Assembly (NCBI GenBank): GCA_045804265.1
Contig: JBJMNK010000116.1
Location: 1,867 to 65,866 of the forward strand
Direction of reading: 5' to 3'
Source of the DNA: Gemmatimonadaceae bacterium
GTDB taxonomy: Bacteria; Gemmatimonadota; Gemmatimonadetes; Gemmatimonadales; Gemmatimonadaceae
DNA: 64,000 bases
Shown here: piece by piece, positions 1 through 63,858 of the stretch
Layout: each line of letters begins with the position of its first letter
How positions within the stretch are numbered: the first letter of the stretch is position 1
The notes under the pieces: model-generated
Told to the model about the DNA's origin: nothing
The model's database searches: none
What the model saw: the letters and a program-made list of their open reading frames with translations, nothing else
Made by a program: the position numbers and the translations under genes

Positions 1-941
1 TAGCGGCTCAGGATCGGCGCGTAGGCGTCGACGCGCCGGTCGCGGAGGAATGGCCAGTTGCGACGGATCGTCTCCATCAGCTTCGGATCGAGCGTCGCGG
101 TCAGGATTGCCTCCTCGGTCCCCGCCTCGGCGATCAGCCGGCCGAACGGGTCGCTGATGAACGAGTGACCGAAGAAGGTGATGCCGTTCGTGTTCGGCTC
201 GTCCTCGTGGCCGATGCGATTCGGCGAGGCGACGAAGATTCCATTCGCAATCGCGTGCGACCGCTGCATCGTCCGCCACGCTTCCACCTGCGCGTCGCCC
301 CACTCTGCCTTCTCGGCTGGGTGCCATCCGATCGCGGTCGGATAGAACAGCACGTCAGCCCCGAGCAGGCTGGTGATGCGCGCGGCCTCGGGGTACCACT
401 GGTCCCAGCAGATGAGGACCCCGACGTTGGCGTAGCGCGTCTTCCAGACGTGGAAGCCGCTGGCCTGCTTCGCCAGCCGTCCGATCTGGTCGGCGCGGTC
501 GTCGTGCGTGCCGTGAACGTTAGGCACGGCGTCGCCGGGGGTGAAGTAGTACTTCTCGTTGAAGAGCGGGTCGTCGGGGATGTGCATCTTGCGATACACG
601 CCCAGCAGCGAGCCATCGGCGTCGATGATCGCCGCCGAGTTGCGGTAGACGCCGGCCGCCTGACGCTCGAACAGCGGCACGATGATCACGACCGCGAGCT
701 CCTTCGCGATCTTCTGCATGGCGGTCGTGGTCGGACCGGGAATCGGCTCGGCGTAGTCGAAGCGCTCGCACTGCTGCGACTTGCAGAAGTACGGCGCGTT
801 GAAGAGCTCCTTGAGGCAGATGATCTTCGCGCCACGGGCGGCGGCCTCGCGCACCTGCGCGACGCCACGCTCCACGTTCGCCGCGACGTCATTCGTCGCC
901 GCGTCCTGGATGATGCCGATGGTGAACGGGGAGGTTGTCAT
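1..941 (-). CDS. aguB: N-carbamoylputrescine amidase (carbon-nitrogen hydrolase), 3' end outside window
   Basis: The minus-strand frame is open from the window edge to the ATG at 941-939. It is absent from the ORF track because its stop lies outside the window. My translation reads MTTSPFTIGIIQDAATNDV...LKELFNAPYFC...YRKMHIPDDPLFNEKYYFTPGD...NVGVLICWDQWYPEAAR. This is the typical CN-hydrolase Glu/Lys/Cys signature of AguB-type amidases. Confidence 0.85.
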   Translation of the reverse strand, partial: MTTSPFTIGIIQDAATNDVAANVERGVAQVREAAARGAKIICLKELFNAPYFCKSQQCERFDYAEPIPGPTTTAMQKIAKELAVVIIVPLFERQAAGVYRNSAAIIDADGSLLGVYRKMHIPDDPLFNEKYYFTPGDAVPNVHGTHDDRADQIGRLAKQASGFHVWKTRYANVGVLICWDQWYPEAARITSLLGADVLFYPTAIGWHPAEKAEWGDAQVEAWRTMQRSHAIANGIFVASPNRIGHEDEPNTNGITFFGHSFISDPFGRLIAEAGTEEAILTATLDPKLMETIRRNWPFLRDRRVDAYAPILSR

Positions 942-974
942 GAAAACAAAGCTATTAGCCTTTAGCCGTCAGCG

Positions 975-1009
975 GAAAGCCACCGCGGTGCGTCACCGCG
1001 GTGGCTTTC
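975..1009 (-). terminator. GC-rich hairpin downstream of the peroxiredoxin gene (terminator-like, no clear U-tract)
   Basis: Perfect 16-bp stem GAAAGCCACCGCGGTG / CACCGCGGTGGCTTTC with a 3-nt loop. It lies between the stop of the gene at 1051 and the start of aguB. Confidence 0.45.
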
Positions 1010-1050
1010 ACGCAACTTTGCCGCCGTCTCTCGACGCTGACAGTTAAAGG

Positions 1051-1680
1051 CTAACGGCCGGTTTTCTGTTTCACCGCGCTGTCCTTTGGCGCGAGCGCAT
1101 CGACCGCGGCCGCGAGGTCGGTGTAGGACTTGGGCAAGAGCTCCTTGAAGGGCTGCGCAGCGTAGGTGACGCGCCCATCCGGCCCGACCACGAAGAGGCT
1201 GCGGTCGTCGAGCTTGTACTGCTCGTTGTGCGCGCCGTAGCGACGACCGATGTCACCGGTGGGGTCGCTGGCGAAGAGCATCGGGAACTGTTCGTCGCGG
1301 GCCCAGCTGGCGAGCGCGGTGTCGGGGTCGACACTGATGCCGATCACGGTGACGTGACGGCCGTTGTTGAAGAGCGTGGCGTACTGATCACGGTACGCCT
1401 CCATTTGAATCGTTCAGCCCTTTGTCCGCGCCTTGTAGAAGAACGCGATCACCACCGTCTGTCCACGGTAGTCGGAGAGTCGAACGGGCGAGGCGAGCAG
1501 TCCATACCGCGTCGCACCACGAAGCTCGAAGTCGGGCGCGATGGTGCCCACCGTTATGACGGGAGCAGGCGCCGCCGGCGCGGCGGCCTGTGTCGGCTGT
1601 TGCGCATGCCCCGATCGCGCGGCGAGCAGGAGCGCGGCGGCGACGGCGGACGCCGCAAGACGATGAGAGATGATGGCCAT
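1051..1680 (-). CDS. Secreted PrxQ/BCP-type peroxiredoxin (AhpC/TSA family) with in-frame TGA (1414-1416) at the peroxidatic Cys position; probable selenoprotein
   Basis: Track ORFs 1414..2118(-) and 1051..1404(-) are in the same frame and separated only by TGA plus 9 nt. The joined product is MAIISHRLAASAVAAALLLAARSGHAQQ (signal peptide)...GTIAPDFELRG...LSDYRGQTVVIAFFYKARTKG-[TGA]-TIQMEAYRDQYATLFNNGRHVTVIGISVD...LFASDPTGDIGRRYG. This reproduces the Prx motif PxxxTxxC as YKARTKG-U. Confidence 0.7.
1378..1399 (-). promoter_or_regulatory. SECIS-like stem-loop downstream of the in-frame UGA
   Basis: In mRNA sense the structure is GGCGUAC-CGUGAUCA-GUACGCC, a 7-bp stem with an 8-nt loop containing GU. 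The stem starts 14 nt after the UGA, so the loop begins 21 nt downstream. This is within the spacing range described for bacterial SECIS elements. Confidence 0.5.
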
Positions 1681-1945
1681 TGATCCCGAGGTGAGGGTTG
1701 TCGAACACCGGATGATGTACGGCAAGCACCACGCGCGAAAGGGTCCGGAGGTCGCGATCCGCAGCTTCGAAGATAGGCGGCTAAGCGGGCTCGTCTGCGT
1801 CGCGGGACATCTTGAGTTACTGCTGAGGACGACACCCGCCGTTAAGGCCGGAAATAGCCGCACAACTTGCGGCATTGGCCCTGCCTTTACATGGCCCGTC
1901 GGCCGGGCTGTTCCGGCCCGGATCCAATCGAGGAGGGCTTCGATC

Positions 1946-2699: not shown

Positions 2700-3095
2700 A
2701 TGTCGCCGACGAGCGAAGCGCAGCTAAATCTCATCATCGAAAAGCTCGTGAAGGACGTGGAGCTGTCGGTGCATGCGATGTATCGCGGCGACGTCAGGCA
2801 GAACACCGCCAAGGTTCGCACCGATACGCACCGCCGCGCGGCGTACGAGGCACTGCGCCCGCTGATCGGCGAGGGAAGTGCGCCGGCAGGCGCCCCGCCC
2901 GCACTGCCTAACGGCGGCGGGCTGACGGCTGCCGAAGCGACCGCGATCATGCGCTGCGTCTCGGCCTGGCTGCCGATGGGCGCGCCGAGTGCCGCCGCAC
3001 CCGACTCCCGCTGCGTTGCGGCGGCGCGCGAGCTGTTCCCGACCTGGGGTGAGCGCGAGCTGGCGCGTCAGGCAGTCAAGCGCGTGCACGGATGA
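2700..3095 (+). CDS. Hypothetical protein (start 2700 ATG or 2682 GTG)
   Basis: Open frame with GC3-rich codon usage ending 4 nt before the kinase start. I recognise no family. Confidence 0.5.
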   Translation: MSPTSEAQLNLIIEKLVKDVELSVHAMYRGDVRQNTAKVRTDTHRRAAYEALRPLIGEGSAPAGAPPALPNGGGLTAAEATAIMRCVSAWLPMGAPSAAAPDSRCVAAARELFPTWGERELARQAVKRVHG

Positions 3096-3099
3096 TCGG

Positions 3100-4893
3100 A
3101 TGATCGAGCCACCGACGAAACCAACGCAGACGTCGCCTGACGCGCTGACGATGCATGCCGGGATAGCCGGCGTGTGCTCGGCGTGCGGCTCGAGGGTGAG
3201 CGACCCGATGCATCCATGCCCGAAGTGCGGGGCGGCCGTGTCCGGAGGCGGTTCACCCGTCGCGCAGAACGAACGGATGCGCGTGCGGTTGCAGGAGTCG
3301 GTCGGCGACAGCTACAAGCTGCTCGAGCTGCTCGGGCGCGGCGGGATGGGCATCGTCTTCCGTGCGCGCGAAGTCGCACTCGATCGCGATGTCGCACTCA
3401 AGGTGCTCGCGCTCGACCCGATCCTCGCACCGGACGCATACACGCGCTTCGAGCGTGAGGCGAAGATGGCGGCGCGGCTCGACCATCCGCACATCGTGCC
3501 GATCTTCGCCGTCGGGCAGCGGCAGAACGTTGCGTTCTACACGATGCGGCTCGTCCGCGGTGGAAGCCTCGAGGACCTGATCGGCGCGGGGAAGCAGATC
3601 TCGCTCGATCATGTCGTGAAGCTGCTCAAGGAAGTCGCGGCCGCGCTCGATCATGCACACCGGCAGGGAATCGTCCATCGCGACATCAAGCCGGCGAACG
3701 TGCTCCTCAGCGAGAGCGGGCACGCGATGGTTGCCGACTTCGGAATCGCCAAGGCGCTGAGCAACACCGATAACGGGGCGACGGGCACAGGCATCATCGG
3801 GTCGCCGGGGTACATGTCACCCGAGCAGTGGCGAGGCGCGGACATCGATGGGCGCGCCGACCAGTACTCGTTAGGCATCGTCGCCTACGAGATGCTCACC
3901 GGGCGCCGCCCGTTCGAGACGCCGCAGGTGCAGGACCTGCTTCGGATGCACTTGTCGGCCGAGATGCCGCCGCTGTCGCACTCGCGTCCGGGACTTCCCG
4001 AGGGGGTGGATGAAGCGCTCCGTCGCGCGCTCTCGAAGGATCCTGCCCAGCGCTTTTCGACGGTCACGGCGTTCGTCGATGCGCTCGCCGGGCTGCGTCC
4101 GGCGAGCGTGGGCGCAACCCAGCGCGGCCCGCGCTACGACAAGCGGTCAGCCGCAGCGGCGCCGAAGCGCAGCCTCGTCGGCGCACTCGTGCCGATCGCG
4201 CTGATCGCGGCGGTGGGAGCGGCGTTCGTGTTCCCGCAGACGAGGGACCCGATCATGCTGGCGCTGCAGCCGGCGATCGTGTCGGTCGAGGGGATGGCGG
4301 GTGTTCGCGATGCGGGCCCGGTGACGCCGGATTCGGTCGCCGCCCGCGACAGCATCGCGCTCGCCGCGCAGCTCGCGCAGCACGACAGCCTCGCCAGCGC
4401 CGCCGGCGTGACGACAGCCGCGGTGATGGGAGGCGATACGCTGGCCCTTCGCGACTCGGCCGGCCGCGGCACATTGGCGCCGGCGCCGATCGGCCTCGAC
4501 ACCTCGCTCGTTGCGATGGCCGCAACGCGAACTGCGCCGCGCATGCAGTACGGCTGGCTGCGGATCGTGATCAACGGCGGAACGGCGCCGGCGAAGATCG
4601 ACGGCGTACGCCAAGGCTCGACTCCGATCATGCGCCGCGTCGAGGAAGGCGAGCACCTCGTTACAGTCGAAGGCGCGGGCGATTCGTTCCTTCCGTCGCA
4701 GATCACGGTCACCGTCTCCGCGGGCGACACGGCGACTGCGGTGTTCGCGACACCGGACGCGATGCGACGCGCGAAGAGCGCACGTGGCGCGATCGACAGT
4801 ACTGCACCGGTGCCGGCTTCGTCGCCCGGTGCGGCGGCGGCCGGGACGCCCGTGAGCGCGCCCGTGGACAGCGCCGCGCACCCCCCGCGCTGA
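3100..4893 (+). CDS. Ser/Thr protein kinase with N-terminal zinc-ribbon, TM segment and C-terminal PEGA-like domain
   Basis: Zinc-ribbon CSACG...CPKCG. Kinase motifs GRGGMGIVF, VALKVL, HRDIKPANVLL, DFGIAK and GSPGYMSPEQ. TM segment LVGALVPIALIAAVGAAFVF. C-terminal region GWLRIVINGG...GEHLVTVEG...ITVTVSAGDTA. The upstream part of track ORF 2989.. overlaps the preceding gene and was rejected. Confidence 0.9.
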   Translation: MIEPPTKPTQTSPDALTMHAGIAGVCSACGSRVSDPMHPCPKCGAAVSGGGSPVAQNERMRVRLQESVGDSYKLLELLGRGGMGIVFRAREVALDRDVALKVLALDPILAPDAYTRFEREAKMAARLDHPHIVPIFAVGQRQNVAFYTMRLVRGGSLEDLIGAGKQISLDHVVKLLKEVAAALDHAHRQGIVHRDIKPANVLLSESGHAMVADFGIAKALSNTDNGATGTGIIGSPGYMSPEQWRGADIDGRADQYSLGIVAYEMLTGRRPFETPQVQDLLRMHLSAEMPPLSHSRPGLPEGVDEALRRALSKDPAQRFSTVTAFVDALAGLRPASVGATQRGPRYDKRSAAAAPKRSLVGALVPIALIAAVGAAFVFPQTRDPIMLALQPAIVSVEGMAGVRDAGPVTPDSVAARDSIALAAQLAQHDSLASAAGVTTAAVMGGDTLALRDSAGRGTLAPAPIGLDTSLVAMAATRTAPRMQYGWLRIVINGGTAPAKIDGVRQGSTPIMRRVEEGEHLVTVEGAGDSFLPSQITVTVSAGDTATAVFATPDAMRRAKSARGAIDSTAPVPASSPGAAAAGTPVSAPVDSAAHPPR

Positions 4894-4981: not shown

Positions 4982-5689
4982 ATGTCGAACGACGAGCAGT
5001 CATCTTTCCCCGACCTCCCAGCGGGCGGGGCTTCGATGCCCGGCAACGCCGAGCGGCGAAGCGCACGCCATGTCGCGAATCGCGCCTACATGGCGATCAA
5101 GGCGCAGCGCGCCGCCGATCGCACTCGCGTCGAGGACATCGCCGAGTCGCTGAACGAGTTCGCATCGTCGACGCCGTTCCTGATCTTTCACGCAATCTGG
5201 TTCCTCATCTGGCTGCCCTGGAACATCGGCGCGTTTCGACCGATCGGGCTCGAGCCGTTCGATCCGTATCCGTTCGGTCTTCTCACGATGATCGTCTCGC
5301 TCGAGGCGATCTTCCTTTCGATCTTCGTCCTGCTCGCGCAGAAGCGGGAAGCAGCGATCGCCGAGCTGCGCGAGGAGCTCTCGCTGCAGGTTGGGCTCTG
5401 GACGGAACAGGAAGTGACGAAGACGCTGCAGCTGGTGACGGGCCTCTATCGCCGACTCGGACATCCGCTCGCCGAGGACGTGGAGCTGCGGCAGATGCTT
5501 GGCCCACTCGACGTCCACGGAATCGAGGCGAGACTGCTCGCCGAAATCGACTCGTCGAGCAGGAGTCGCTCTAGCTCCGGCCCGTCGATCTCGAAGCCGG
5601 AGCGCGCGAAAGCCGAGACGAGGCCGTCGCCTGACGCTGCGCCTGCGGCTGCGTCGCCGATCCCGCCGGCGAACTTGCCACCGCTGTGA
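4982..5689 (+). CDS. DUF1003 family membrane protein
   Basis: The core FASSTPFLIFHAIWFLIWLPWNIG...DPYPFGLLTMIVSLEAIFLSIFVLLAQ is typical of DUF1003. The low-complexity C-terminal tail overlaps the convergent lipid kinase gene. Confidence 0.75.
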   Translation: MSNDEQSSFPDLPAGGASMPGNAERRSARHVANRAYMAIKAQRAADRTRVEDIAESLNEFASSTPFLIFHAIWFLIWLPWNIGAFRPIGLEPFDPYPFGLLTMIVSLEAIFLSIFVLLAQKREAAIAELREELSLQVGLWTEQEVTKTLQLVTGLYRRLGHPLAEDVELRQMLGPLDVHGIEARLLAEIDSSSRSRSSSGPSISKPERAKAETRPSPDAAPAAASPIPPANLPPL

Positions 5690-7274: not shown

Positions 7275-7310
7275 GGCGATCGTGGCTCGGCGGTGATGGT
7301 GCGCGGAGCG

Positions 7311-51838: not shown

Positions 51839-52531
51839 TCACCGCGCGCCTCCCGTACCTGACACGGCGCCGTCGACGACCGCGATCGTCAGCCCATCCC
51901 ATCCCTTGCTCCCCACCGTCTGGATCGTCGTCGCCGTCACACGGGGATTGCTCCGCAGCATCTCGTTCAGCTTCCGCACCCCGCGCACGCTCGGGTCGGT
52001 GCTCGATGCATCCACGATCGCGCCGTCGCGGATGACGTTGTCGACGACGATCACCGCGCCGGGCGTCGCCAGCTTCATCGCCCAGTCGAAGTAGGACGGG
52101 ATGTTCGGCTTGTCGGCGTCGATGAAGATGAAATCGAATGGACCCTCCTGCTCCGAGCGGAGGCGGGGCAGCGTCTCGAGCGCGGCGCCGAGCCTGACGT
52201 CCACCACTCTATCGAGCCCGGCGCGGGCAATGTTGGCGCGGGCGACCGTCGCGTGCTTCTCGTCGGCCTCGAGCGTGACCAGCCGCCCGCCAGCCGGGAG
52301 CGCCCGCGCGAGCCAGATGGTGCTGTAGCCGCCTAACGTTCCGATCTCGAGGATCTTCCGCGCCCCGCGCAGGCGGGCGAGCATCGCCAGCAGCTTCCCC
52401 TGGTTCGGGGCGACGGCGATCTGCGGCAGGCCGGCTGCCGCGCTCGCCTCGAGCGCCGCGTCGAGCGTGTCGTCAGGGTCGACGAGCGCCTCGGTGATGT
52501 AGCGATCGACTTCGGTCCACTGCTCTTCCAT
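51839..52531 (-). CDS. Class I SAM-dependent O-methyltransferase (caffeoyl-CoA OMT family)
   Basis: ILEIGTLGGYSTIWLA...FDFIFIDADKPN...GAVIVVDNV motifs. Confidence 0.85.
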   Translation of the reverse strand: MEEQWTEVDRYITEALVDPDDTLDAALEASAAAGLPQIAVAPNQGKLLAMLARLRGARKILEIGTLGGYSTIWLARALPAGGRLVTLEADEKHATVARANIARAGLDRVVDVRLGAALETLPRLRSEQEGPFDFIFIDADKPNIPSYFDWAMKLATPGAVIVVDNVIRDGAIVDASSTDPSVRGVRKLNEMLRSNPRVTATTIQTVGSKGWDGLTIAVVDGAVSGTGGAR

Positions 52532-56250: not shown

Positions 56251-56315
56251 TTGTTTCGCGCACCGCTCACCAGATGCACGGAACAACGGTTGACCTGCGT
56301 GACAGGGGACTGGCG

Positions 56316-58381: not shown

Positions 58382-60244
58382 ATGCTGCTCCTCGCACTCG
58401 CACTCGCCGCCTCGACTACGATCGCCGGCACGACCACGCACCCGGTCGCCGACGTCGTGCCTAACGACAACCGCATACCGGCTGGACGTCTCGACGGGGG
58501 AGTCCTCACTCTCCGCGTCGTCGCCGAGGACGCAACCTTCTACCCGGAGACGAAGCGCGGGCCGGGAATCGCCGTGTATGCGTTCGCCGAGGAAGGAAGC
58601 GGACCGACCGTGCCGGGGCCGTTGATTCGCGTGCCGGCAGGCACCGAGATTCGTGTCTTCCTGCGCAATGCGCTCGCCACGCCGCTCTGCGTCCGTGGGC
58701 TGCAGGACCACACGACCTCGATGCTCGACACGGTCGACATCGCAGCGGGTGCGACGCGCGAGGTGCGCTTCCGCGCGAACTCGGCGGGAACATTCATCTA
58801 CTGGGCGCGCGCGACGCAGGATGGGACCGGGTTTGGCTGGAGCCAGGACTCGCAGCTCACCGGCGCTTTCATCGTCGACCCGCCGAACACGAAGCCGCGC
58901 GCCGATGAGCGGATCATGGTCATGACGCTCTACGCCGACACGCTCGACCAGAACGGGCATGAGGTGCGTCGCGAGCCGATCACCATCAACGGCGTCGCCT
59001 GGCCGTGGACGGAGCGCCTGACGTACACAGTCGGCGACACGGTGCGCTGGCGCGTCCTCAACGCCACTATCGCGAACCACCCGATGCACCTGCACGGGTT
59101 CTACTTCGACGTCACCAGCAAGGGCGACACGACGCGCGACACCGTCTACACGCCGGTACAGCGCCGCAAGGCAGTGACCGAGATGCTCACTCCCGGCGCG
59201 ACGATGTCCGTTGCCTGGATCCCGACGAGGCCGGGGAACTGGCTCTTCCACTGCCATCTCATCTATCACATCGACGCCAGCCGCAGGCTCGCCGACGCGG
59301 TGCCGGTGGGCTACGAGCACAATCACGCCTTCGACGGGATGTCGGGGCTGGTGATGGCGATCCAGGTCGCACCGGCGCACGGCGCGGTCGCCACCGCGCC
59401 CGACCCAATTGCCCGCCGGCGCATCTACCTCTTCATCGACGAAAGGCCTAACGTTTTCGGCGACCGTCCCGGCTACGCTTTCGTGCTCCAGCGCGACAGC
59501 ATGCCGCCAGCGGTGGATTCGGCGCCATCCCCCAGCTCGACGCTGGTGCTCCACCGCAACGAGCCGACCGAGATCGTCGTCGTCAACCGGCTGCAAGCCG
59601 GTCACGCCAGCATCCACTGGCATGGCATCGAGCTCGAGAGCTTCTATGACGGCGTCGGTGGCTGGAGCGGAGCAGGGGATCATCTCGCGCCGGTGATCGC
59701 CCCGGGTGATTCATTCGTCGTGCGGATGACTCCCGATCGCGCCGGGACTTTCATCTATCACACGCATGTCGACGAGGGGAAGCAGCTCACGTCCGGGCTC
59801 TATGGCCCGCTGATCGTCCTCGCCGAGGGCGCCGCGGTGGACACCACCGATCGCATCTTCCTCATCGGCGACCCGGGCCCGACCGACACGCCGCGCCTCG
59901 TCGTCGCGCCCTTCATCAACGGTTCGACCACACCACCGCCGCTCGAGCTGCGCGCCGGCACTACGCATCGCATCCGCTTCGTCAGTATCTCCGGGGCGTT
60001 CGTGCGTCGTGTGCGGCTCATCTCCGAGACTGGCATCGAGCGCTGGCGCGCCGTAGCCAAGGACGGCGCCGACCTTCCGCTCCGTCAGGCCACCATGCGC
60101 AACGCGCAAGTCGACCTCGGCCCCGGCGAGACCGCCGACTTCGAGGTGCGCCGGGACAAGCCCGAAGTCCTGACAATGGAGATCGTGACCGCGCCGGCGC
60201 AGAAGCGGCCGCACCTGATGAAGATCCCGGTGATCGTGCGGTGA
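58382..60244 (+). CDS. Multicopper oxidase family protein (secreted)
   Basis: GGAGGG lies upstream of the ATG. Copper ligand motifs HPMHLHG, HCHLIYH, IHWHGIE and YHTHVDE. Confidence 0.8.
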   Translation: MLLLALALAASTTIAGTTTHPVADVVPNDNRIPAGRLDGGVLTLRVVAEDATFYPETKRGPGIAVYAFAEEGSGPTVPGPLIRVPAGTEIRVFLRNALATPLCVRGLQDHTTSMLDTVDIAAGATREVRFRANSAGTFIYWARATQDGTGFGWSQDSQLTGAFIVDPPNTKPRADERIMVMTLYADTLDQNGHEVRREPITINGVAWPWTERLTYTVGDTVRWRVLNATIANHPMHLHGFYFDVTSKGDTTRDTVYTPVQRRKAVTEMLTPGATMSVAWIPTRPGNWLFHCHLIYHIDASRRLADAVPVGYEHNHAFDGMSGLVMAIQVAPAHGAVATAPDPIARRRIYLFIDERPNVFGDRPGYAFVLQRDSMPPAVDSAPSPSSTLVLHRNEPTEIVVVNRLQAGHASIHWHGIELESFYDGVGGWSGAGDHLAPVIAPGDSFVVRMTPDRAGTFIYHTHVDEGKQLTSGLYGPLIVLAEGAAVDTTDRIFLIGDPGPTDTPRLVVAPFINGSTTPPPLELRAGTTHRIRFVSISGAFVRRVRLISETGIERWRAVAKDGADLPLRQATMRNAQVDLGPGETADFEVRRDKPEVLTMEIVTAPAQKRPHLMKIPVIVR

Positions 60245-60259
60245 TCGCGCGTTAGGCGG

Positions 60260-61108: not shown

Positions 61109-62521
61109 ATGAACATCGAAGCGCTCGAGCGCGAGTTCCGAGGCGAGATCCTGACGGCTGAATCGCCCGGCTACGAGGAGGCCCGCCACATCTGGAATGC
61201 GATGATCGACAAGCGACCGGCCGCGATCGCGCGCTGCCGCAATGCGGACGACGTCGTCGCTGCGGTCCGCTTCGCGGCGCGGGAGGGAATCTTCCCCGCA
61301 GTGCGCGGCGGCGGTCACAATGCCGCCGGACTGGCGATGGTCGATGATGGACTCGTGATCGACGTCTCGCCGATGAAGCGCATACGCGTTGACACCGACG
61401 CGCGGACTGCCGTGGCCGAGACCGGGCTCACCTGGGGCGAGTTCGACCGCGCGACGCAGGCACACGGGCTGGCGGTCACCGGCGGACTGATCTCGAGCAC
61501 GGGGATCGCCGGGCTCACGTTAGGCGGCGGCGTCGGCTGGCTGATGGGGCAATGCGGACTCTCCTGCGACAACACGCTCTCGTACGACGTGGTCACTGCG
61601 AACGGCGAGATGATCACCGCCAGCGCCGACGAACATCAGGACCTGTTCTGGGCGCTGAAGGGCGGTGGTGGCAACTTCGGCGTCGTCACTTCGATCACGT
61701 ATCGCCTCTATCCGGTCACGCAGGTGATCTCGGGAATGCTGATTCACCCGATCGCGCGGGCGCGCGAGGTGCTCACCTTTTATCGCGATTTCGTCTCCGC
61801 CGGCCTCCCCGATGAACTGGTGATCTACGCTTCGGCCATCACGACGCCGGAAGGGGTGCCGGTGATCGCGCTGATCCCCGCGTACACTGGAAAGGACCTC
61901 GCGGAAGGCGAGCGTATCCTCGCGCCGCTGCGCGCGTTCGGTCCGCCGGTCGTCGACATGGTGCAACGGATGCCCTACCTCGCGATGCAGTCGATGATCG
62001 ATCCAGCATGTCCTTACGGAAAGATGCGCAGCTACTGGAAGTCGCACTTCCTCAGCGCGCTCCCCGACGCGGCGATCGAAACCTTCGTGCAGCACGCCGA
62101 GCAATGCACGTCGCCGCGTACGTTCGTGATCATCGAGCACGCGCACGGCGCGGCGGCTCGCGTCGCGCCCGACGCGACCGCGTTCCCGGTTCGCGAGCAC
62201 GAGTTCAACCTCGTCGTGCTCAGCCTCTGGGACGACGCGAGCGACGACGCGCGGCAGATTGCGTGGACACGCGCCTTCTATCAGGCGATGCAGCCCTGGT
62301 CGGCGGCGCTGGTGTACGTCAACGCCCTCAGCGACGACGACGGCGGTCGTGTCGCCGAAGCGTACGGACAGAACTTCGAGCGGCTCGCCGACGTGAAGGC
62401 GAAGTACGATCCGGGAAACATGTTCCGGCGGAACCAGAACGTACCGCCGGCGCGGGTTTCAGGCGGGGCAGGGCTGCCGATGCGCGACGAGTCGGCGGTG
62501 TGGAGCGCGCCGCCGGCCTGA
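61109..62521 (+). CDS. FAD-binding oxidoreductase (FAD-linked oxidase / BBE-like family)
   Basis: GGAGGA lies upstream of the ATG. VRGGGHNAAGLA...GGLISSTGIAGLTLGGGVGWL...DLFWALKGGGGNFGVVT. C-terminal BBE-like region KAKYDPGNMFRRNQNV. Confidence 0.85.
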   Translation: MNIEALEREFRGEILTAESPGYEEARHIWNAMIDKRPAAIARCRNADDVVAAVRFAAREGIFPAVRGGGHNAAGLAMVDDGLVIDVSPMKRIRVDTDARTAVAETGLTWGEFDRATQAHGLAVTGGLISSTGIAGLTLGGGVGWLMGQCGLSCDNTLSYDVVTANGEMITASADEHQDLFWALKGGGGNFGVVTSITYRLYPVTQVISGMLIHPIARAREVLTFYRDFVSAGLPDELVIYASAITTPEGVPVIALIPAYTGKDLAEGERILAPLRAFGPPVVDMVQRMPYLAMQSMIDPACPYGKMRSYWKSHFLSALPDAAIETFVQHAEQCTSPRTFVIIEHAHGAAARVAPDATAFPVREHEFNLVVLSLWDDASDDARQIAWTRAFYQAMQPWSAALVYVNALSDDDGGRVAEAYGQNFERLADVKAKYDPGNMFRRNQNVPPARVSGGAGLPMRDESAVWSAPPA

Positions 62522-62539
62522 CTCGTCGCGCGCCTCTGC

Positions 62540-63076
62540 CTAACGTGCTGCTGGCCGCGCGCGGACGAGCGTGAGCCGGGCGAATGGCGACAGCTGCCCC
62601 GCGTTGTCGTTGTCCATCCGCCACGTCCAGCTGTCCGCGCGACGGTCGTAGGTCATGGTGTTGTGGAAGCTGGTGGTCGCGTCGTGATGAAAGACGAACG
62701 GGATCGAGTCGCCGCTCGGCGCGACCTGCGCCAGCGAACCCGGCGCGATCCCACCATAGACGTCGAGCCAGACGCACGCGTACTGCTTCGCGTCGCCGTT
62801 CCACCCGACGTAGATGTCAGCCTGGTACTGCGGGTCCCCGTTGCCGCCCTTCTCGCGCGAGACCTCGTGCAGATGCACGTACTGGTGGCCGAGCACCCAC
62901 TCGGCGGTGACGTCGTGCGTGGTCGGCTGGTCGTCGATGGTGCCGGTGAGCGTCCAGCGTCCGACCATGCGATCAAGCAGCGGGTCGCTGAGCGTCGGCT
63001 GTTGCGCGAGCGCAGGACGCGGGTGCAGCGACGCGATGGTGAGCAGCGCGGCGACGGCGAGGGAGAGGTGGCGCAT
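62540..63076 (-). CDS. DUF1579 domain secreted protein
   Basis: Signal peptide MRHLSLAVAALLTIASLHPRPALA. GRWTLTGT...WVLGHQYVHLH pattern. Confidence 0.7.
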   Translation of the reverse strand: MRHLSLAVAALLTIASLHPRPALAQQPTLSDPLLDRMVGRWTLTGTIDDQPTTHDVTAEWVLGHQYVHLHEVSREKGGNGDPQYQADIYVGWNGDAKQYACVWLDVYGGIAPGSLAQVAPSGDSIPFVFHHDATTSFHNTMTYDRRADSWTWRMDNDNAGQLSPFARLTLVRARPAAR

Positions 63077-63157
63077 GGGGGCTCCTCGAGGATGTCGGTG
63101 ATTCGTGTTCCGGAATCAACGGGTCGCGGGTGCGTCCGGTAAGTACCGGGGGAGACG

Positions 63158-63313
63158 GAAGCAACGGCAACAGCATTTCCACAGGAGCCACAGAGGGCGC
63201 AGACCGTCTGGATGAAGTGGCACGACTGAAGCAACGGCAACAGCATTTCCACAGGAGCCACAGAGGGCACAGAGGGGTCTGATCAAACCCTCTGTGCCCT
63301 CTGTGGCTCCTGT
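63158..63313. repeat. Family A palindromic element with a 70-bp-period direct duplication of its left flank and arm
   Basis: GAAGCAACGGCAACAGCATTTCCACAGGAGCCACAGAGGGC occurs at 63158-63199 and again at 63228-63269. The second copy continues into the hairpin ACAGGAGCCACAGAGGGCACAGAGGGG-TCTGATCAAA-CCCTCTGTGCCCTCTGTGGCTCCTGT. Confidence 0.75.
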
Positions 63314-63858
63314 TCAATTCGTGCTCGTTGTCTGTAGTGGGAGGAACGGCTGCTTCGATCTGAGGCTCATCGGTGCCTCGGGCGCACTGGTTGCTCGTCT
63401 TGACCCGCCCTCGCGCCTCCTCACCTCCCGAAACGCGAAACGTCAGCCCCACATCGACAGTCTATCGAATGTGTCCGCCTCTTCGAGCCGGATTCGCCGA
63501 CACGGATCGACGGCTCCCCGGGTCGGGACGCCGAACATCAGACTCCTCCCAACCTCACCCCACATGCGCGAGCTCACCCCCATCTACTCCGCCGCAACGC
63601 CGGCTCGGCTGCGCTCGACGCTCGTGGGATTCCTCGCGCTGATGCTCGCGCTCGGCGTCGTCGCATCGATCGCCAGCGTCTGACGCTCGCCGCGCGGCCC
63701 GCGTGTCCCGGGTCGCCGCACGTTAGGCAGCCGATGACCGGAAAATGTGAGCTGCGCCCACTTGTGAAGACAGTGGCCGCCTGGCGATCATGATCACTCT
63801 CGTCGCGGAAGGCGCGCGAGCTCACCAGAGTGGAGATGCGGGAATGGAACGGCGACTG

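What the first reader, a model, noticed from the sequence alone, without database searches (positions are those of the whole stretch)
518..63728. Hyper-abundant, strand-symmetric 8-mer GCCTAACG (about 1 per kb): candidate DNA uptake or recognition sequence
A manual scan finds the exact word GCCTAACG 34 times on the + strand. The starts are 2906, 5807, 6500, 8408, 9767, 11786, 14544, 15132, 18980, 20621, 21724, 22891, 26184, 26694, 29030, 31108, 33103, 35556, 36264, 36874, 40092, 41974, 44306, 48150, 51219, 52331, 53402, 53993, 56805, 57513, 58136, 58459, 59446 and 62538. Its complement CGTTAGGC occurs 31 times. The starts are 518, 3869, 9172, 13122, 13440, 18558, 19703, 21086, 24539, 30388, 32872, 34097, 34181, 38141, 38912, 42875, 43307, 44983, 45715, 46350, 47529, 48950, 49991, 51587, 54187, 54679, 55903, 56314, 60250, 61518 and 63721. 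I may have missed a few. A zero-order estimate predicts only about 2-3 copies on both strands in 64 kb. That estimate uses my assumed composition of G=C about 0.34 and A=T about 0.16, which I did not compute. Flanking bases are not conserved, so this is not a fragment of a longer repeat. One-mismatch relatives are few: GGCTAACG at 1049, GTCTAACG at 8134 and 42594, and GGTTAGGC at 17689. The two orientations are interleaved and about equal. Gaps are mostly 0.3-2.4 kb, with a minimum of 84 bp and a maximum of about 3.4 kb. 58 copies sit inside the coding body of functionally unrelated genes. Three more overlap stop codons and four are intergenic. A density near 1 per kb, strand symmetry and tolerance inside coding DNA are the hallmarks of Neisseria DUS and Pasteurellaceae USS. 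As far as I know, no comparable word has been described for high-GC soil lineages.
Basis: partly seen in the sequence, partly recalled or inferred. Interest (0 to 1): 0.88.

Follow-up and report, generated by a model that had tools for sequence, protein, structure and literature searches.

The report
Hyper-abundant DNA word in Gemmatimonadaceae
A group of soil bacteria (Gemmatimonadaceae) and some of their viruses carry the 8-letter DNA word GCCTAACG about once per 1000 bases, roughly 250 times more often than relatives, a signature seen so far only in the "take up my own DNA" tags of Neisseria and Haemophilus and in the cyanobacterial HIP1 word.

Summary
GCCTAACG occurs 65 times (34+/31-) at every listed coordinate. 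Expected counts are 1.1 (dinucleotide shuffle), 2.3 (order-3 Markov) and 1.0 (codon shuffle that keeps all proteins and codon usage).

It is not confined to the window. Eleven contigs from Gemmatimonadaceae relatives in independent assemblies carry it at 0.5-1.5 per kb, while 280 kb of other Gemmatimonadota DNA holds one copy.

The motif is Y-GCCT(A>G)ACG. Copies are evenly spaced (CV 0.60 vs 0.98), unoriented, unstructured, and sit in unrelated genes in two favoured codon phases. All 17 Pro-Asn sites able to encode the word do so, and 24 of 32 TTA codons lie inside it. The encoded peptide context is about twice as frequent as in relatives lacking the word.

Sites are conserved above background but also turn over. 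Sister lineages show dialects (RCCTAACG, GCCTAACR). Phage contigs carry the word too.

Every sequence-level hallmark of a DNA uptake sequence that I could test is met, and a polar Chi/KOPS signal is excluded. Competence genes, methylation and uptake bias could not be tested, so the function remains an inference (about 0.4).

The parts
518..525 (-). GCCTAACG copy; sense xxG-CCT-AAC-Gxx (Pro-Asn), ORF 3-968(-)
2906..2913 (+). GCCTAACG copy; intergenic or ORF uncertain
3869..3876 (-). GCCTAACG copy; anti xCG-TTA-GGC (Leu-Gly), ORF 2926-4893(+)
5807..5814 (+). GCCTAACG copy; anti xxC-GTT-AGG-Cxx (Val-Arg), ORF 5571-6701(-)
6500..6507 (+). GCCTAACG copy; anti xxC-GTT-AGG-Cxx (Val-Arg), ORF 5571-6701(-)
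8408..8415 (+). GCCTAACG copy; sense xxG-CCT-AAC-Gxx (Pro-Asn), ORF 8079-10202(+)
9172..9179 (-). GCCTAACG copy; anti xCG-TTA-GGC (Leu-Gly), ORF 8079-10202(+)
9767..9774 (+). GCCTAACG copy; sense xxG-CCT-AAC-Gxx (Pro-Asn), ORF 8079-10202(+)
11786..11793 (+). GCCTAACG copy; sense xxG-CCT-AAC-Gxx (Pro-Asn), ORF 11478-12479(+)
13122..13129 (-). GCCTAACG copy; anti xCG-TTA-GGC (Leu-Gly), ORF 12206-13324(+)
13440..13447 (-). GCCTAACG copy; sense xGC-CTA-ACG (Leu-Thr), ORF 13431-13976(-)
14544..14551 (+). GCCTAACG copy; intergenic or ORF uncertain
15132..15139 (+). GCCTAACG copy; overlaps TAG stop of the esterase gene 15134-16078(-)
18558..18565 (-). GCCTAACG copy; anti xCG-TTA-GGC (Leu-Gly), ORF 18029-18859(+)
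18980..18987 (+). GCCTAACG copy; anti xCG-TTA-GGC (Leu-Gly), ORF 18821-19780(-)
19703..19710 (-). GCCTAACG copy; sense xGC-CTA-ACG (Leu-Thr), ORF 18821-19780(-)
20621..20628 (+). GCCTAACG copy; anti xxC-GTT-AGG-Cxx (Val-Arg), ORF 19842-21416(-)
21086..21093 (-). GCCTAACG copy; sense xxG-CCT-AAC-Gxx (Pro-Asn), ORF 19842-21416(-)
21724..21731 (+). GCCTAACG copy; anti xCG-TTA-GGC (Leu-Gly), ORF 21466-22719(-)
22891..22898 (+). GCCTAACG copy; anti xCG-TTA-GGC (Leu-Gly), ORF 22720-23991(-)
24539..24546 (-). GCCTAACG copy; sense xxG-CCT-AAC-Gxx (Pro-Asn), ORF 24285-24614(-)
26184..26191 (+). GCCTAACG copy; anti xCG-TTA-GGC (Leu-Gly), ORF 25722-26327(-)
26694..26701 (+). GCCTAACG copy; anti xCG-TTA-GGC (Leu-Gly), ORF 26328-26984(-)
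29030..29037 (+). GCCTAACG copy; anti xxC-GTT-AGG-Cxx (Val-Arg), ORF 26985-29120(-)
30388..30395 (-). GCCTAACG copy; sense xxG-CCT-AAC-Gxx (Pro-Asn), ORF 29121-30634(-)
31108..31115 (+). GCCTAACG copy; sense xGC-CTA-ACG (Leu-Thr), ORF 30414-32945(+)
32872..32879 (-). GCCTAACG copy; anti xCG-TTA-GGC (Leu-Gly), ORF 30414-32945(+)
33103..33110 (+). GCCTAACG copy; intergenic or ORF uncertain
34097..34104 (-). GCCTAACG copy; sense xxG-CCT-AAC-Gxx (Pro-Asn), ORF 33624-35222(-)
34181..34188 (-). GCCTAACG copy; sense xxG-CCT-AAC-Gxx (Pro-Asn), ORF 33624-35222(-)
35556..35563 (+). GCCTAACG copy; anti xCG-TTA-GGC (Leu-Gly), ORF 35223-36701(-)
36264..36271 (+). GCCTAACG copy; anti xCG-TTA-GGC (Leu-Gly), ORF 35223-36701(-)
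36874..36881 (+). GCCTAACG copy; intergenic or ORF uncertain
38141..38148 (-). GCCTAACG copy; sense xxG-CCT-AAC-Gxx (Pro-Asn), ORF 37260-39584(-); shared with L001
38912..38919 (-). GCCTAACG copy; sense xxG-CCT-AAC-Gxx (Pro-Asn), ORF 37260-39584(-)
40092..40099 (+). GCCTAACG copy; intergenic or ORF uncertain
41974..41981 (+). GCCTAACG copy; intergenic or ORF uncertain
42875..42882 (-). GCCTAACG copy; anti xCG-TTA-GGC (Leu-Gly), ORF 42109-44226(+)
43307..43314 (-). GCCTAACG copy; anti xCG-TTA-GGC (Leu-Gly), ORF 42109-44226(+)
44306..44313 (+). GCCTAACG copy; sense xxG-CCT-AAC-Gxx (Pro-Asn), ORF 44187-46193(+)
44983..44990 (-). GCCTAACG copy; anti xCG-TTA-GGC (Leu-Gly), ORF 44187-46193(+)
45715..45722 (-). 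GCCTAACG copy; anti xCG-TTA-GGC (Leu-Gly), ORF 44187-46193(+)
46350..46357 (-). GCCTAACG copy; anti xCG-TTA-GGC (Leu-Gly), ORF 46199-47614(+)
47529..47536 (-). GCCTAACG copy; anti xCG-TTA-GGC (Leu-Gly), ORF 46199-47614(+)
48150..48157 (+). GCCTAACG copy; sense xxG-CCT-AAC-Gxx (Pro-Asn), ORF 47617-50277(+)
48950..48957 (-). GCCTAACG copy; anti xCG-TTA-GGC (Leu-Gly), ORF 47617-50277(+)
49991..49998 (-). GCCTAACG copy; anti xCG-TTA-GGC (Leu-Gly), ORF 47617-50277(+)
51219..51226 (+). GCCTAACG copy; anti xCG-TTA-GGC (Leu-Gly), ORF 51123-51902(-)
51587..51594 (-). GCCTAACG copy; sense xxG-CCT-AAC-Gxx (Pro-Asn), ORF 51123-51902(-); shared with L165
52331..52338 (+). GCCTAACG copy; anti xCG-TTA-GGC (Leu-Gly), ORF 51839-52732(-); shared with L161
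53402..53409 (+). GCCTAACG copy; sense xxG-CCT-AAC-Gxx (Pro-Asn), ORF 53190-56003(+); shared with L161/L162
53993..54000 (+). GCCTAACG copy; sense xxG-CCT-AAC-Gxx (Pro-Asn), ORF 53190-56003(+); shared with L161/L162
54187..54194 (-). GCCTAACG copy; anti xCG-TTA-GGC (Leu-Gly), ORF 53190-56003(+); shared with L161/L162
54679..54686 (-). GCCTAACG copy; anti xCG-TTA-GGC (Leu-Gly), ORF 53190-56003(+); shared with L161/L162
55903..55910 (-). GCCTAACG copy; anti xCG-TTA-GGC (Leu-Gly), ORF 53190-56003(+); window-only
56314..56321 (-). GCCTAACG copy; supplies TAA stop of GntP gene 56316-57659(-)
56805..56812 (+). GCCTAACG copy; anti xCG-TTA-GGC (Leu-Gly), ORF 56316-57662(-); shared with L161-L164, L167
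57513..57520 (+). GCCTAACG copy; anti xCG-TTA-GGC (Leu-Gly), ORF 56316-57662(-); shared with L161-L168
58136..58143 (+). GCCTAACG copy; anti xCG-TTA-GGC (Leu-Gly), ORF 57656-58198(-); shared with L161-L168
58459..58466 (+). GCCTAACG copy; sense xxG-CCT-AAC-Gxx (Pro-Asn), ORF 58277-60244(+); shared with L164
59446..59453 (+). GCCTAACG copy; sense xxG-CCT-AAC-Gxx (Pro-Asn), ORF 58277-60244(+); L164 has GCCTGACG here
60250..60257 (-). GCCTAACG copy; anti xxC-GTT-AGG-Cxx (Val-Arg), ORF 60245-62521(+)
61518..61525 (-). GCCTAACG copy; anti xCG-TTA-GGC (Leu-Gly), ORF 60245-62521(+)
62538..62545 (+). GCCTAACG copy; overlaps TAG stop of ORF 62540-63076(-)
63721..63728 (-). GCCTAACG copy; intergenic or ORF uncertain
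658..665 (+). GCCTGACG (G-form) copy; anti CGT-CAG-GCx (Arg-Gln-Ala), ORF 3-968(-)
2792..2799 (-). GCCTGACG (G-form) copy; intergenic or ORF uncertain
3066..3073 (-). GCCTGACG (G-form) copy; anti xxC-GTC-AGG-Cxx (Val-Arg), ORF 2926-4893(+)
3135..3142 (+). GCCTGACG (G-form) copy; sense xxG-CCT-GAC-Gxx (Pro-Asp), ORF 2926-4893(+)
5629..5636 (+). GCCTGACG (G-form) copy; anti CGT-CAG-GCx (Arg-Gln-Ala), ORF 5571-6701(-)
6425..6432 (+). GCCTGACG (G-form) copy; anti xxC-GTC-AGG-Cxx (Val-Arg), ORF 5571-6701(-)
7309..7316 (-). GCCTGACG (G-form) copy; intergenic or ORF uncertain
14870..14877 (+). GCCTGACG (G-form) copy; intergenic or ORF uncertain
15859..15866 (-). GCCTGACG (G-form) copy; sense xxG-CCT-GAC-Gxx (Pro-Asp), ORF 15134-16087(-)
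16596..16603 (-). GCCTGACG (G-form) copy; sense xxG-CCT-GAC-Gxx (Pro-Asp), ORF 16174-16755(-)
17771..17778 (+). GCCTGACG (G-form) copy; sense xxG-CCT-GAC-Gxx (Pro-Asp), ORF 16695-18275(+)
17803..17810 (+). GCCTGACG (G-form) copy; sense xGC-CTG-ACG (Leu-Thr), ORF 16695-18275(+)
23280..23287 (+). GCCTGACG (G-form) copy; anti xxC-GTC-AGG-Cxx (Val-Arg), ORF 22720-23991(-)
25442..25449 (+). GCCTGACG (G-form) copy; anti CGT-CAG-GCx (Arg-Gln-Ala), ORF 24589-25956(-)
26127..26134 (-). GCCTGACG (G-form) copy; sense xGC-CTG-ACG (Leu-Thr), ORF 25722-26327(-)
28383..28390 (-). GCCTGACG (G-form) copy; sense xGC-CTG-ACG (Leu-Thr), ORF 26985-29120(-)
34118..34125 (-). GCCTGACG (G-form) copy; sense xxG-CCT-GAC-Gxx (Pro-Asp), ORF 33624-35222(-)
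34959..34966 (-). GCCTGACG (G-form) copy; sense xGC-CTG-ACG (Leu-Thr), ORF 33624-35222(-)
37596..37603 (-). GCCTGACG (G-form) copy; sense xGC-CTG-ACG (Leu-Thr), ORF 37260-39584(-); L017/L036 have GCCTAACG here
41078..41085 (-). GCCTGACG (G-form) copy; intergenic or ORF uncertain
42920..42927 (+). GCCTGACG (G-form) copy; sense xGC-CTG-ACG (Leu-Thr), ORF 42109-44226(+)
44036..44043 (+). GCCTGACG (G-form) copy; sense xGC-CTG-ACG (Leu-Thr), ORF 42109-44226(+)
44716..44723 (+). GCCTGACG (G-form) copy; sense xGC-CTG-ACG (Leu-Thr), ORF 44187-46193(+)
44752..44759 (+). GCCTGACG (G-form) copy; sense xGC-CTG-ACG (Leu-Thr), ORF 44187-46193(+)
45946..45953 (+). GCCTGACG (G-form) copy; sense xGC-CTG-ACG (Leu-Thr), ORF 44187-46193(+)
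48011..48018 (+). GCCTGACG (G-form) copy; sense xGC-CTG-ACG (Leu-Thr), ORF 47617-50277(+)
48754..48761 (-). GCCTGACG (G-form) copy; anti CGT-CAG-GCx (Arg-Gln-Ala), ORF 47617-50277(+)
50783..50790 (-). GCCTGACG (G-form) copy; anti xxC-GTC-AGG-Cxx (Val-Arg), ORF 50709-51131(+)
52192..52199 (+). GCCTGACG (G-form) copy; anti xxC-GTC-AGG-Cxx (Val-Arg), ORF 51839-52732(-)
54193..54200 (+). GCCTGACG (G-form) copy; sense xGC-CTG-ACG (Leu-Thr), ORF 53190-56003(+); L165 has GCCTAACG here
54341..54348 (-). GCCTGACG (G-form) copy; anti xxC-GTC-AGG-Cxx (Val-Arg), ORF 53190-56003(+)
56898..56905 (+). GCCTGACG (G-form) copy; anti xCG-TCA-GGC (Ser-Gly), ORF 56316-57662(-)
59016..59023 (+). GCCTGACG (G-form) copy; sense xGC-CTG-ACG (Leu-Thr), ORF 58277-60244(+)
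60083..60090 (-). GCCTGACG (G-form) copy; anti CGT-CAG-GCx (Arg-Gln-Ala), ORF 58277-60244(+)

Best explanation
GCCTAACG (full consensus Y-GCCT[A>G]ACG, invariant core CCTAACG) is a lineage-specific self-identity tag of one clade of Gemmatimonadaceae. The shown part is this. It is a DNA-level signal, not a by-product of proteins, codons, RNA structure or a mobile repeat. It is written mostly into wobble positions of unrelated genes, on either strand, about once per kb and more evenly than chance. It is kept above background in relatives while individual sites turn over. It differs slightly between sister lineages, and phage DNA of the clade carries it too. The inferred part is this. It is read on duplex DNA by a sequence-specific protein of the DNA-uptake (competence) machinery. 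DNA fragments that carry the word are then imported and recombined preferentially. New copies therefore spread and lost copies are restored through the population, which is the molecular drive proposed for Neisseria DUS and Pasteurellaceae USS. The A-form is the optimal signal. The G-form is a weaker or decaying version, tolerated where a wobble G is favoured.
For: Over-representation is about 250x against related genomes (1.02/kb vs 0.004/kb) and 49 vs 1.0 against a codon-preserving null. That is the range reported for uptake sequences: 183x and 392x for perfect copies and about 2-5x for singly mismatched forms (PMC1939737). Here the mismatch class is enriched only through GCCTGACG. Density is about 1 per kb, against one DUS per 400-1100 bp (PMC7371117). 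Strands are balanced at 34:31, orientation order is random, and the count is 25:24 within uniform GC skew. Spacing is even, CV 0.60 vs 0.98 with 0 of 5000 simulations as low, and 8 of 10 other loci show the same trend. Even spacing is also reported for USS (Karlin et al., cited in PMC1939737). Reading-frame preference and saturation: 47 of 55 coding copies share one phase class, 17/17 Pro-Asn sites and about half of the [APST]-Leu-Gly sites are occupied, and relatives lacking the word have 1/30 and 0/126. The encoded peptide context is 1.9x commoner than in relatives lacking the word, matching the 'approximately doubled' tripeptides of PMC2817400. Copies also sit at poorly conserved residues. 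The word is present in every contig fetched from GntP relatives at 79-94% identity and in L085, and absent from L169 (78%) and 280 kb of other Gemmatimonadota. Dialects are RCCTAACG in L171/L172 and GCCTAACR in L085. Sites are conserved above the identical-8-mer baseline, with gains and losses. Phage contigs carry the word with the same frame hierarchy, as expected if prophages co-evolve with the host (PMC7371117).
Against: No competence gene, pilin or receptor was seen, and none could be looked for outside the fetched fragments. Natural transformation is, to my knowledge, not documented in Gemmatimonadota, and the literature searches found nothing. Complete saturation of one class of sites (17/17) and heavy use of TTA, the rarest Leu codon in word-free relatives, are stronger effects than I know of for DUS or USS. 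In PMC2817400, frames correlate with preferred codons. No inverted pairs acting as terminators were found. One viral contig (L239) has twice the host density, 24 copies in 11.8 kb, which a drive acting through the host gene pool does not obviously predict. The G-form is common in hosts but nearly absent from viral contigs, which is unexplained. HIP1 shows the same sequence-level signature and its function is still disputed (PMC5861425).
Confidence: 0.4

Rival explanations
1. It is a self-marker read by a DNA-processing or defence nuclease, a Chi-like attenuator that works in both orientations. DNA that carries the word at high density is spared or channelled into recombinational repair. Phages of the clade copy the word to pass as self.
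For: The motif is asymmetric, 8 bp and digitally exact, as Chi is. Even spacing and high density on both strands would minimise DNA loss from two-ended breaks. Bona fide phage DNA carries the word at or above host density, with L239 at 2.0 per kb and the L196 tail module at 0.78 per kb. Orientation is coherent within several viral contigs, for example 7:1 and 18:6. Clade-specific dialects would fit co-evolution with a recognition subunit.
Against: To my knowledge every characterised Chi is skewed toward the leading strand and only a few-fold over-represented. Here there is no skew (25:24 within uniform GC skew) and about 250x enrichment. The orientation coherence in phage contigs is largely explained by co-oriented genes and by which peptide sites are available, and part of that set was ascertained with a same-orientation search pattern.
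Confidence: 0.15
2. It is a HIP1-like word: the target of an orphan DNA methyltransferase and/or a nucleoid-structuring protein, kept by selection for a chromosome-wide role such as compaction, domain structure or strand marking for repair.
For: It is an octamer with enrichment in the 15-300x range of HIP1, sites conserved above background, and no support for an RNA- or peptide-level motif (no strand or hairpin signal). Those are the arguments used for HIP1 (PMC5861425). Even spacing near 1 kb would suit a repair or architectural mark. An R at one position and a TRAC-like end resemble specificities of some adenine methyltransferases (my own recollection, not tested).
Against: The word is not palindromic, whereas HIP1 and its methyltransferase sites are. 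Contiguous asymmetric specificities of 8-9 bp are unusual for methyltransferases (my knowledge). A restriction-linked methylation target would be avoided by phages, not accumulated. HIP1 itself is now reported to enhance transformation (bioRxiv 10.1101/2024.09.10.611283), which blurs the line with the best explanation.
Confidence: 0.15
3. It is the product of a neutral sequence-specific mutational or repair bias: a 'writer' such as very-short-patch-type repair that converts near-matches into the word in any DNA replicating in these cells.
For: Phage DNA acquires the word with the same frame hierarchy as host DNA. Non-shared sites usually differ at 2-4 bases, so few intermediates persist. The commonest single-step difference between relatives is the transition GCCTGACG <-> GCCTAACG.
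Against: Even spacing is not expected from a local repair bias. Near-matches such as GCCGAACG remain at background frequency, 0.14 vs 0.13 per kb. Twelve to thirteen GCCTGACG copies are a single synonymous transition from the word and remain unconverted. Sites are conserved above background, the argument used against biased repair for HIP1 (PMC5861425).
Confidence: 0.07
4. It is a compositional or coding artefact, or a fragment of a longer repeat or mobile element.
For: The genome is very G+C-rich with strong codon bias. Other 'enriched' 8-mers in the comparison loci did turn out to be tandem arrays, REP-like repeats or repeat-protein genes.
Against: The codon-preserving shuffle expects 1.0 against 49 observed. 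Relatives with the same composition have 1 copy in 280 kb. Flanks are not conserved beyond one base each side, there is no hairpin context and no Rfam match.
Confidence: 0.01

Closest known systems
DNA uptake sequences of Neisseriaceae (DUS, AT-GCCGTCTGAA and dialects; receptor ComP)
   Same: Density near 1 per kb, over-representation of hundreds of fold, strand symmetry, location inside unrelated genes, lineage dialects differing at one or two positions around a fixed core, and reduced or lagging density in foreign DNA with accumulation as elements co-evolve (PMC7371117, PMC1939737).
   Different: Unrelated sequence, 8-9 bp rather than 10-12 bp, and a different phylum. About 85% of copies are in coding bodies (55 of 65), against 35% for N. 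meningitidis (PMC2817400). There are no inverted pairs at terminators. Receptor and competence are unknown.
Uptake signal sequences of Pasteurellaceae (USS, AAGTGCGGT core)
   Same: Even spacing, preferred reading frames, about a two-fold inflation of the encoded peptides, placement at poorly conserved residues, most copies inside ORFs, and perfect copies vastly outnumbering mismatched ones (PMC2817400, PMC1939737).
   Different: There is no AT-rich flanking extension, only Y at -1 and not-A at +2. The favoured frame uses a very rare codon (TTA) instead of preferred codons. One site class is completely saturated (17/17).
HIP1 (GCGATCGC) of cyanobacteria
   Same: A hyper-abundant octamer, about one per gene, conserved between genomes beyond background, with no RNA or peptide role, in a non-proteobacterial phylum (PMC5861425).
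   Different: HIP1 is a palindrome recognised by two known methyltransferases. This word is asymmetric and no modifying enzyme is known. I could not test long-range periodicity in 64 kb.
Chi sites (RecBCD/AddAB) and KOPS/architecture-imparting 8-mers
   Same: Asymmetric, exact, species-specific 5-8-mers dispersed in coding DNA.
   Different: Those are strand-skewed with replication and only modestly over-represented (my knowledge). This word is unskewed and about 250x enriched.

Membership tests
DNA uptake enhancing sequences (DUS/USS) | Short exact motif over-represented by two orders of magnitude, at roughly 1 per kb | tested here: met
   65 copies in 64 kb. 1.02/kb vs 0.004/kb in 280 kb of related DNA. 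49 vs 1.0 under the codon-preserving null.
DNA uptake enhancing sequences (DUS/USS) | Both orientations about equal, no replication polarity | tested here: met
   34:31 in the window, 25:24 inside uniform GC skew, runs test z = 0.9, and 36:44 when I sum eight non-redundant relatives.
DNA uptake enhancing sequences (DUS/USS) | Tolerated in coding DNA in preferred frames, with inflation of the encoded peptides | tested here: met
   47 of 55 coding copies are in one phase class. The Pro-Asn context is 0.99 vs 0.53 per 1000 codons.
DNA uptake enhancing sequences (DUS/USS) | Shared by a clade, with dialects between related lineages and absence outside | tested here: met
   Present in L161-L168, L170-L172, L085, L017, L036 and L001. 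RCCTAACG in L171/L172 and GCCTAACR in L085. Absent from L169 and other Gemmatimonadota.
DNA uptake enhancing sequences (DUS/USS) | Lower density in recently acquired DNA | tested here: inconclusive
   Density rises with GC3 from 0.59 to 1.31 per kb, but the per-gene correlation is not significant. Phage contigs range from 0.4 to 2.0 per kb.
DNA uptake enhancing sequences (DUS/USS) | Host is naturally competent (type IV pilus, ComEA/ComEC/DprA) and has a motif-specific receptor | not testable with these tools
   The window and fetched fragments hold no such genes. Whole genomes could not be retrieved.
DNA uptake enhancing sequences (DUS/USS) | DNA carrying the motif is taken up or transforms preferentially | not testable with these tools
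   Needs an experiment.
Chi / KOPS-type polar motifs | Orientation skewed with the direction of replication | tested here: not met
   25+:24- across 52 kb of uniformly positive GC skew, with random orientation order.
HIP1-type iterated palindromes | Palindromic octamer that is the target of cognate methyltransferases | tested here: not met
   GCCTAACG is not its own reverse complement (read directly from the sequence). Methylation could not be tested.
HIP1-type iterated palindromes | Sites conserved between genomes beyond the background of other 8-mers | tested here: met
   8/9 vs 0.40, 4/5 vs 0.23 and 3/3 vs 0.27. The excess is weaker at greater distance: 3/7 vs 0.25 and 3/8 vs 0.24.
REP / MITE / longer dispersed repeat | Conserved flanks or hairpin around the core | tested here: not met
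   Flank information is near zero apart from -1 and +2. Fold energies and flank complementarity are like controls. No Rfam family matches.
Restriction-modification / BREX target | Motif avoided, or at most neutral, in host and phage genomes | tested here: not met
   It is strongly enriched in hosts and in phage contigs of the clade.

The most novel reading that the evidence does not exclude
The word is not an uptake signal. It is the readout of a new kind of self/non-self system in which a nuclease, repair or defence machine measures the density of an exact 8-mer on any DNA in the cell, in either orientation. Phages of the clade have evolved to copy or even exceed the host density. A variant of this reading is an enzyme that actively writes the word into DNA.
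Probability: 0.2. Interest if true: 0.9.

Novelty: new variant of a known kind. Interest (0 to 1): 0.8.

Why it matters
Hyper-abundant genomic words of this strength are known from only three lineages: Neisseriaceae, Pasteurellaceae and cyanobacteria. This would be a fourth, independent case, in an abundant but little-studied soil phylum with no genetic system and no reported competence.

If it is an uptake signal, it predicts natural transformation in Gemmatimonadaceae. It also gives a simple handle for making them genetically tractable: put GCCTAACG on the donor DNA.

Whatever its function, the word is a near-digital lineage barcode, at about 1 per kb against 1 per 280 kb. It can assign metagenomic contigs and uncultivated phages to this host clade, as the viral scans here did by accident. 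It also offers a clean comparative system of word-bearing, dialect and word-free sister genomes. Phylogenetic profiling across those genomes could identify the protein that reads the word, which is still unknown for USS and debated for HIP1.

The saturation of permissive sites and the five-fold rise in TTA codons show how strongly a DNA-level signal can reshape codon use and protein sequence.

Tried and rejected
1. Literature search for the word itself found only primers and constructs. Searches for Gemmatimonadota competence or other hyper-abundant words found nothing relevant.

2. I first thought other soil lineages had their own dispersed 8-mers. Inspection showed tandem 7- to 14-mer arrays, REP-like repeats or a repeat-protein gene. 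Only CAGCCTTC in L030 remains a candidate.

3. The window's own proteins are not in the contig look-up collection, so the source genome could not be extended.

5. Hidden-stop ('ambush') idea: TAA and TAG inside the word end many spurious ORFs, but an exact 8-mer is not needed for that and G-form antisense copies give no stop. Rejected.

6. RNA-level or translation-level signal: sense and antisense copies are about equal (21:34 for the A-form, 39:46 with the G-form) and there is no structure. Rejected.

7. Test of whether G-form copies fill the gaps between A-form copies: not significant.

8. Orientation polarity in phage contigs: suggestive, but confounded by gene co-orientation, site availability and ascertainment.

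9. Attempt to tie phage L196 to named Gemmatimonadaceae prophages: the homologues carry no organism names.

10. The AACGCGTT palindrome flagged by the differential screen is only 4 sites and unrelated.

Full report
**Observation.** GCCTAACG occurs 65 times in the 64 kb window, 34 on the + strand and 31 on the - strand. Expected counts are 1.11 under dinucleotide-preserving shuffles (largest 4), 0.9-2.3 under Markov orders 1-3, and 1.03 +/- 1.0 (max 5) under a codon shuffle, against 49 copies inside called genes. The codon shuffle permutes synonymous codons while keeping every protein sequence and the overall codon usage. GCCTAACG has the highest z-score of all 8-mers in the window. Markov orders 4-6 'explain' the count only because nearly every CCTAA, CTAAC and GCCTAA in the window lies inside the word: 65 of 67, 65 of 71 and 65 of 66.

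**Motif anatomy.** There is no longer repeat, since flank information is near zero. But position -1 is C or T in 58 of 65 copies (p = 4e-11) and position +2 is never A. Distinct copies from relatives show the same pattern, 56 of 64 and 1 of 64.

- As an empirical background I used 280 kb of Gemmatimonadota DNA of the same G+C that lacks the word. Against it, GCCTAACG is 1.02/kb in the window, 0.755/kb in clade relatives and 0.004/kb in the background.
- One neighbour, GCCTGACG, is also enriched: 0.53, 0.24 and 0.032 per kb, and 30 vs 5.8 +/- 2.3 under codon shuffling. No other one-mismatch variant is enriched.
- The G-form shares the flank preferences, with Y at -1 in 28 of 34 copies.
- The two forms split by codon phase. 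Where the R position is not a wobble base, A outnumbers G 47:6, although Pro-Asp and Ser-Gly sites could host the G-form. Where R is a wobble base, G outnumbers A 19:8, and A is still far above the background CTA/CTG and GTT/GTC ratios.
- So the A-form is the optimum and the G-form a tolerated or decaying second best. The consensus is Y-GCCT(A>G)ACG.

**Relation to genes.** The window encodes ordinary, unrelated functions: nitrilase-type hydrolase, Ser/Thr kinase, ABC and MacB transporters, glycoside hydrolases, peptidases M1 and M61, penicillin amidase, two DUF5916 proteins, and GntP, DcuC and amino-acid permeases. No competence, pilus, restriction or methylase gene was seen.

- Fifty-five copies lie in coding bodies, 3 overlap stop codons (15132, 56314, 62538) and 7 are intergenic or in uncertain ORFs.
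- Among coding copies, 29 read xCG-TTA-GGC on the antisense strand (Leu-Gly), 18 read xxG-CCT-AAC-Gxx on the sense strand (Pro-Asn), 5 are Val-Arg and 3 are Leu-Thr. So 47 of 55 share one phase class, with word positions 1, 4 and 7 at wobble sites, whichever strand carries the gene.
- Occupancy is extreme. All 17 X-Pro-Asn-[ADEGV] sites that could encode the word synonymously do so. So do 22-24 of 40-44 [APST]-Leu-Gly sites, and 24 of 32 TTA codons lie in the word.
- In 56,672 codons of Gemmatimonadota lacking the word, occupancy is 1/30 and 0/126 and TTA is five-fold rarer (0.35 vs 1.75 per 1000 codons).
- The Pro-Asn context is 0.99 per 1000 codons in the window and 0.83 in clade relatives, against 0.53 in those relatives. 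The proteome itself has therefore been shifted.
- Alignments with orthologues show both purely synonymous cases and cases at variable residues. NPPNGW uses CCT where others use CCG or CCC. Elsewhere the word has brought a Leu or Pro-Asn that orthologues lack.

**Distribution along the DNA.** Gaps have a CV of 0.60 against 0.98 for random placement, and 0 of 5000 simulations were as low. Eight of ten other loci show the same tendency, three of them individually significant. Orientation order is random (runs z = 0.9), and inside the 52 kb with uniformly positive GC skew the count is 25+:24-. Copies are uniform along ORFs, show no hairpin context or flank complementarity, and no Rfam family matches. 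Density rises with gene GC3 from 0.59 to 1.31 per kb, but not significantly.

**Who has it.** The closest relatives of window proteins are Gemmatimonadaceae MAGs.

- Contigs fetched through a graded series of GntP homologues carry the word at 1.47, 1.46, 0.93, 0.86, 0.62, 0.63, 0.63, 0.97, 0.77, 0.56 and 0.49 per kb. These are at 94-79% identity and come from independent JGI, ENA, NCBI and Logan assemblies.
- A 78% relative has none in 21 kb.
- A 74.6% G+C metagenome contig whose DUF5916 protein is only 52% identical has 12 copies in 20 kb, with the same frame preference.
- Three short Gemmatimonadota contigs have 0.3-0.5 per kb.
- Dialects exist. L171/L172 carry ACCTAACG 7 times besides GCCTAACG 12 times, while the window has 65 G and no other base before CCTAACG. 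L085 carries GCCTAACA 4 times.

**Conservation and turnover.** In blastn alignments, window copies are retained in relatives more often than arbitrary 8-mers are identical: 8/9 vs 0.40 (L161), 7/8 vs 0.40, 4/5 vs 0.23 and 3/3 vs 0.27. The excess falls at greater distance, to 3/7 vs 0.25 and 3/8 vs 0.24. All pairwise comparisons within the clade lie above baseline, though many share the same three sites. Relatives also have copies where the window has none, and L085 shares none of the aligned sites. Non-shared sites usually differ at 2-4 of 8 bases. The recurrent single-step difference is GCCTGACG <-> GCCTAACG.

**Phages.** Two-word pattern scans of IMG/VR mostly returned chance pairs, but a set of contigs has many dispersed copies with unrelated flanks.

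- These are L239 (24 in 11.8 kb, 62% G+C), L352 (11), L196 (9), L252 (9), L354 (8), L183 (8), L353, L282 and L190 (7 each) and L174 (6).
- L196 is a siphovirus-type tail module, with tape measure, tail assembly and tail proteins, and Pfam BR0599 plus phiJL001_Gp84_N domains.
- Occupancy follows the host hierarchy: Pro-Asn 20/29, Leu-Gly 30/88, Leu-Thr 11/50, Val-Arg 7/53.
- The G-form is nearly absent, at about 4 against about 70.
- Orientation is coherent within several contigs. This largely follows from co-oriented genes and which peptide sites are available, and part of the set was found with a same-orientation pattern.
- Three other viral contigs (L176, L207, L288) contain the 8-mer inside longer repeated elements and are a different thing.

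**Interpretation.** The data show a DNA-level, strand-agnostic, clade-specific signal under a force strong enough to saturate permissive sites, use the rarest codon and change proteins.

The closest quantitative match is the uptake sequences of Neisseriaceae and Pasteurellaceae. The matching features are:

- density of one per 400-1100 bp (PMC7371117);
- over-representation of 183x and 392x for perfect copies and 2-5x for single mismatches (PMC1939737);
- even spacing (Karlin et al., cited in PMC1939737);
- frame preferences, about two-fold inflation of encoded peptides, and placement at poorly conserved residues (PMC2817400);
- dialects, and accumulation in co-evolving prophages (PMC7371117).

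I therefore rank a DUS/USS-like uptake tag, spreading by biased uptake plus homologous recombination, first at about 0.4. What is inferred and not shown is that the clade is competent, that a receptor reads the word, and that uptake is biased.

Rivals, in order:

- An unpolarised Chi-like or defence self-marker that phages mimic (0.15). It is favoured by phage densities up to twice the host and disfavoured by the lack of skew and the size of the enrichment.
- A HIP1-like methylation or nucleoid word (0.15). The signature is the same, but this word is not palindromic and phages accumulate it.
- A neutral repair or mutational writer (0.07). It is disfavoured by even spacing, by unconverted one-step neighbours and by site conservation.
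- An artefact or repeat fragment (0.01), refuted.

A classical polar Chi/KOPS signal fails its defining test.

**Membership and novelty.** Every sequence-level feature of the uptake-sequence family that could be tested is met. The functional features could not be tested, so I do not file the word as a member. It works like one as far as sequence can tell. It differs in four ways: unrelated sequence and phylum, almost exclusively coding location, reliance on a rare codon, and complete saturation of one site class. Searches of 8 million papers found no report of this word or of any such word in Gemmatimonadota. Elhai et al. noted that very few bacterial genomes have octamers as frequent as HIP1 (PMC3497702).

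**Limits.** Gene calls are my own GC3-based calls and are uncertain for about 10% of the window. The relatives are fragments of 3-22 kb. Conservation counts are small and phylogenetically non-independent. No whole genome, methylome or experiment was available.

Noticed in passing
window 14901-14950, 40901-40925, 63189-63310: Intergenic perfect hairpins built from tandem 9-mers (GGCACAGAG/CACAGAGGG) on one arm and their complement on the other, around a GATCAAA-type loop. CACAGAGG occurs 11 times vs 0.3 expected. A related CCACAGAGG array occurs in Gemmatimonadota contig L014.
   Followed up: partly
L012 (12223-17786), L022 (5102-5163, 20928-21354), L032 (371-399, 1373-1429, 9801-9871): Other Gemmatimonadota and Acidobacteria contigs carry intergenic tandem 7-mer arrays (CCCCAGG, TGAGTCC, CAGGTGG), often as inverted pairs. 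This looks like a family of heptamer-array hairpin elements similar in design to the window's 9-mer arrays.
   Followed up: partly
L030 (Allosphingosinicella sp. MAG, 22 kb): CAGCCTTC occurs 12 times (6+/6-, unrelated flanks, 0.54/kb) against 0.034/kb in 2.5 Mb of all other fetched loci and 0.05-0.16/kb in other Sphingomonadales. It may be a second lineage-specific dispersed word.
   Followed up: partly
window 37260-39506 (-), loci L001-L080: The penicillin amidase has 62-78% identical homologues scattered over Gemmatimonadota, Lysobacteraceae, Caulobacteraceae, Sphingomonadales, Acidobacteriota and Eremiobacterota. That suggests frequent exchange of this gene between soil phyla.
   Followed up: no
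L176 (IMGVR_UViG_3300023212_000464, 563-2984): A 41.5% G+C viral contig has 11 same-strand copies of an 18-base element, TTCCCATCGCCTAACGGC, within 2.5 kb. It contains the 8-mer by coincidence and is probably a phage regulatory repeat. L207 and L288 have other longer repeats containing it.
   Followed up: partly
L196 5214-6068 (-) and neighbours: The word-rich phage tail module encodes a protein with Pfam Phage_BR0599 plus phiJL001_Gp84_N domains next to a tape measure and a 1223-aa tail protein. From memory, this arrangement resembles the distal tail genes of RcGTA-like gene transfer agents. Whether this is a phage or a GTA-like element in Gemmatimonadaceae was not resolved.
   Followed up: partly
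window 54187-54200: An antisense A-form copy and a sense G-form copy overlap by two bases (CGTTAGGCCTGACG). In relative L165 the second is the A-form.
   Followed up: partly
L164 3111-4847: A clade relative encodes a DMP19-family protein (PF14300). From memory, this is a DNA-mimic protein family first described in Neisseria. It sits next to a MazE/PIN toxin-antitoxin pair.
   Followed up: no
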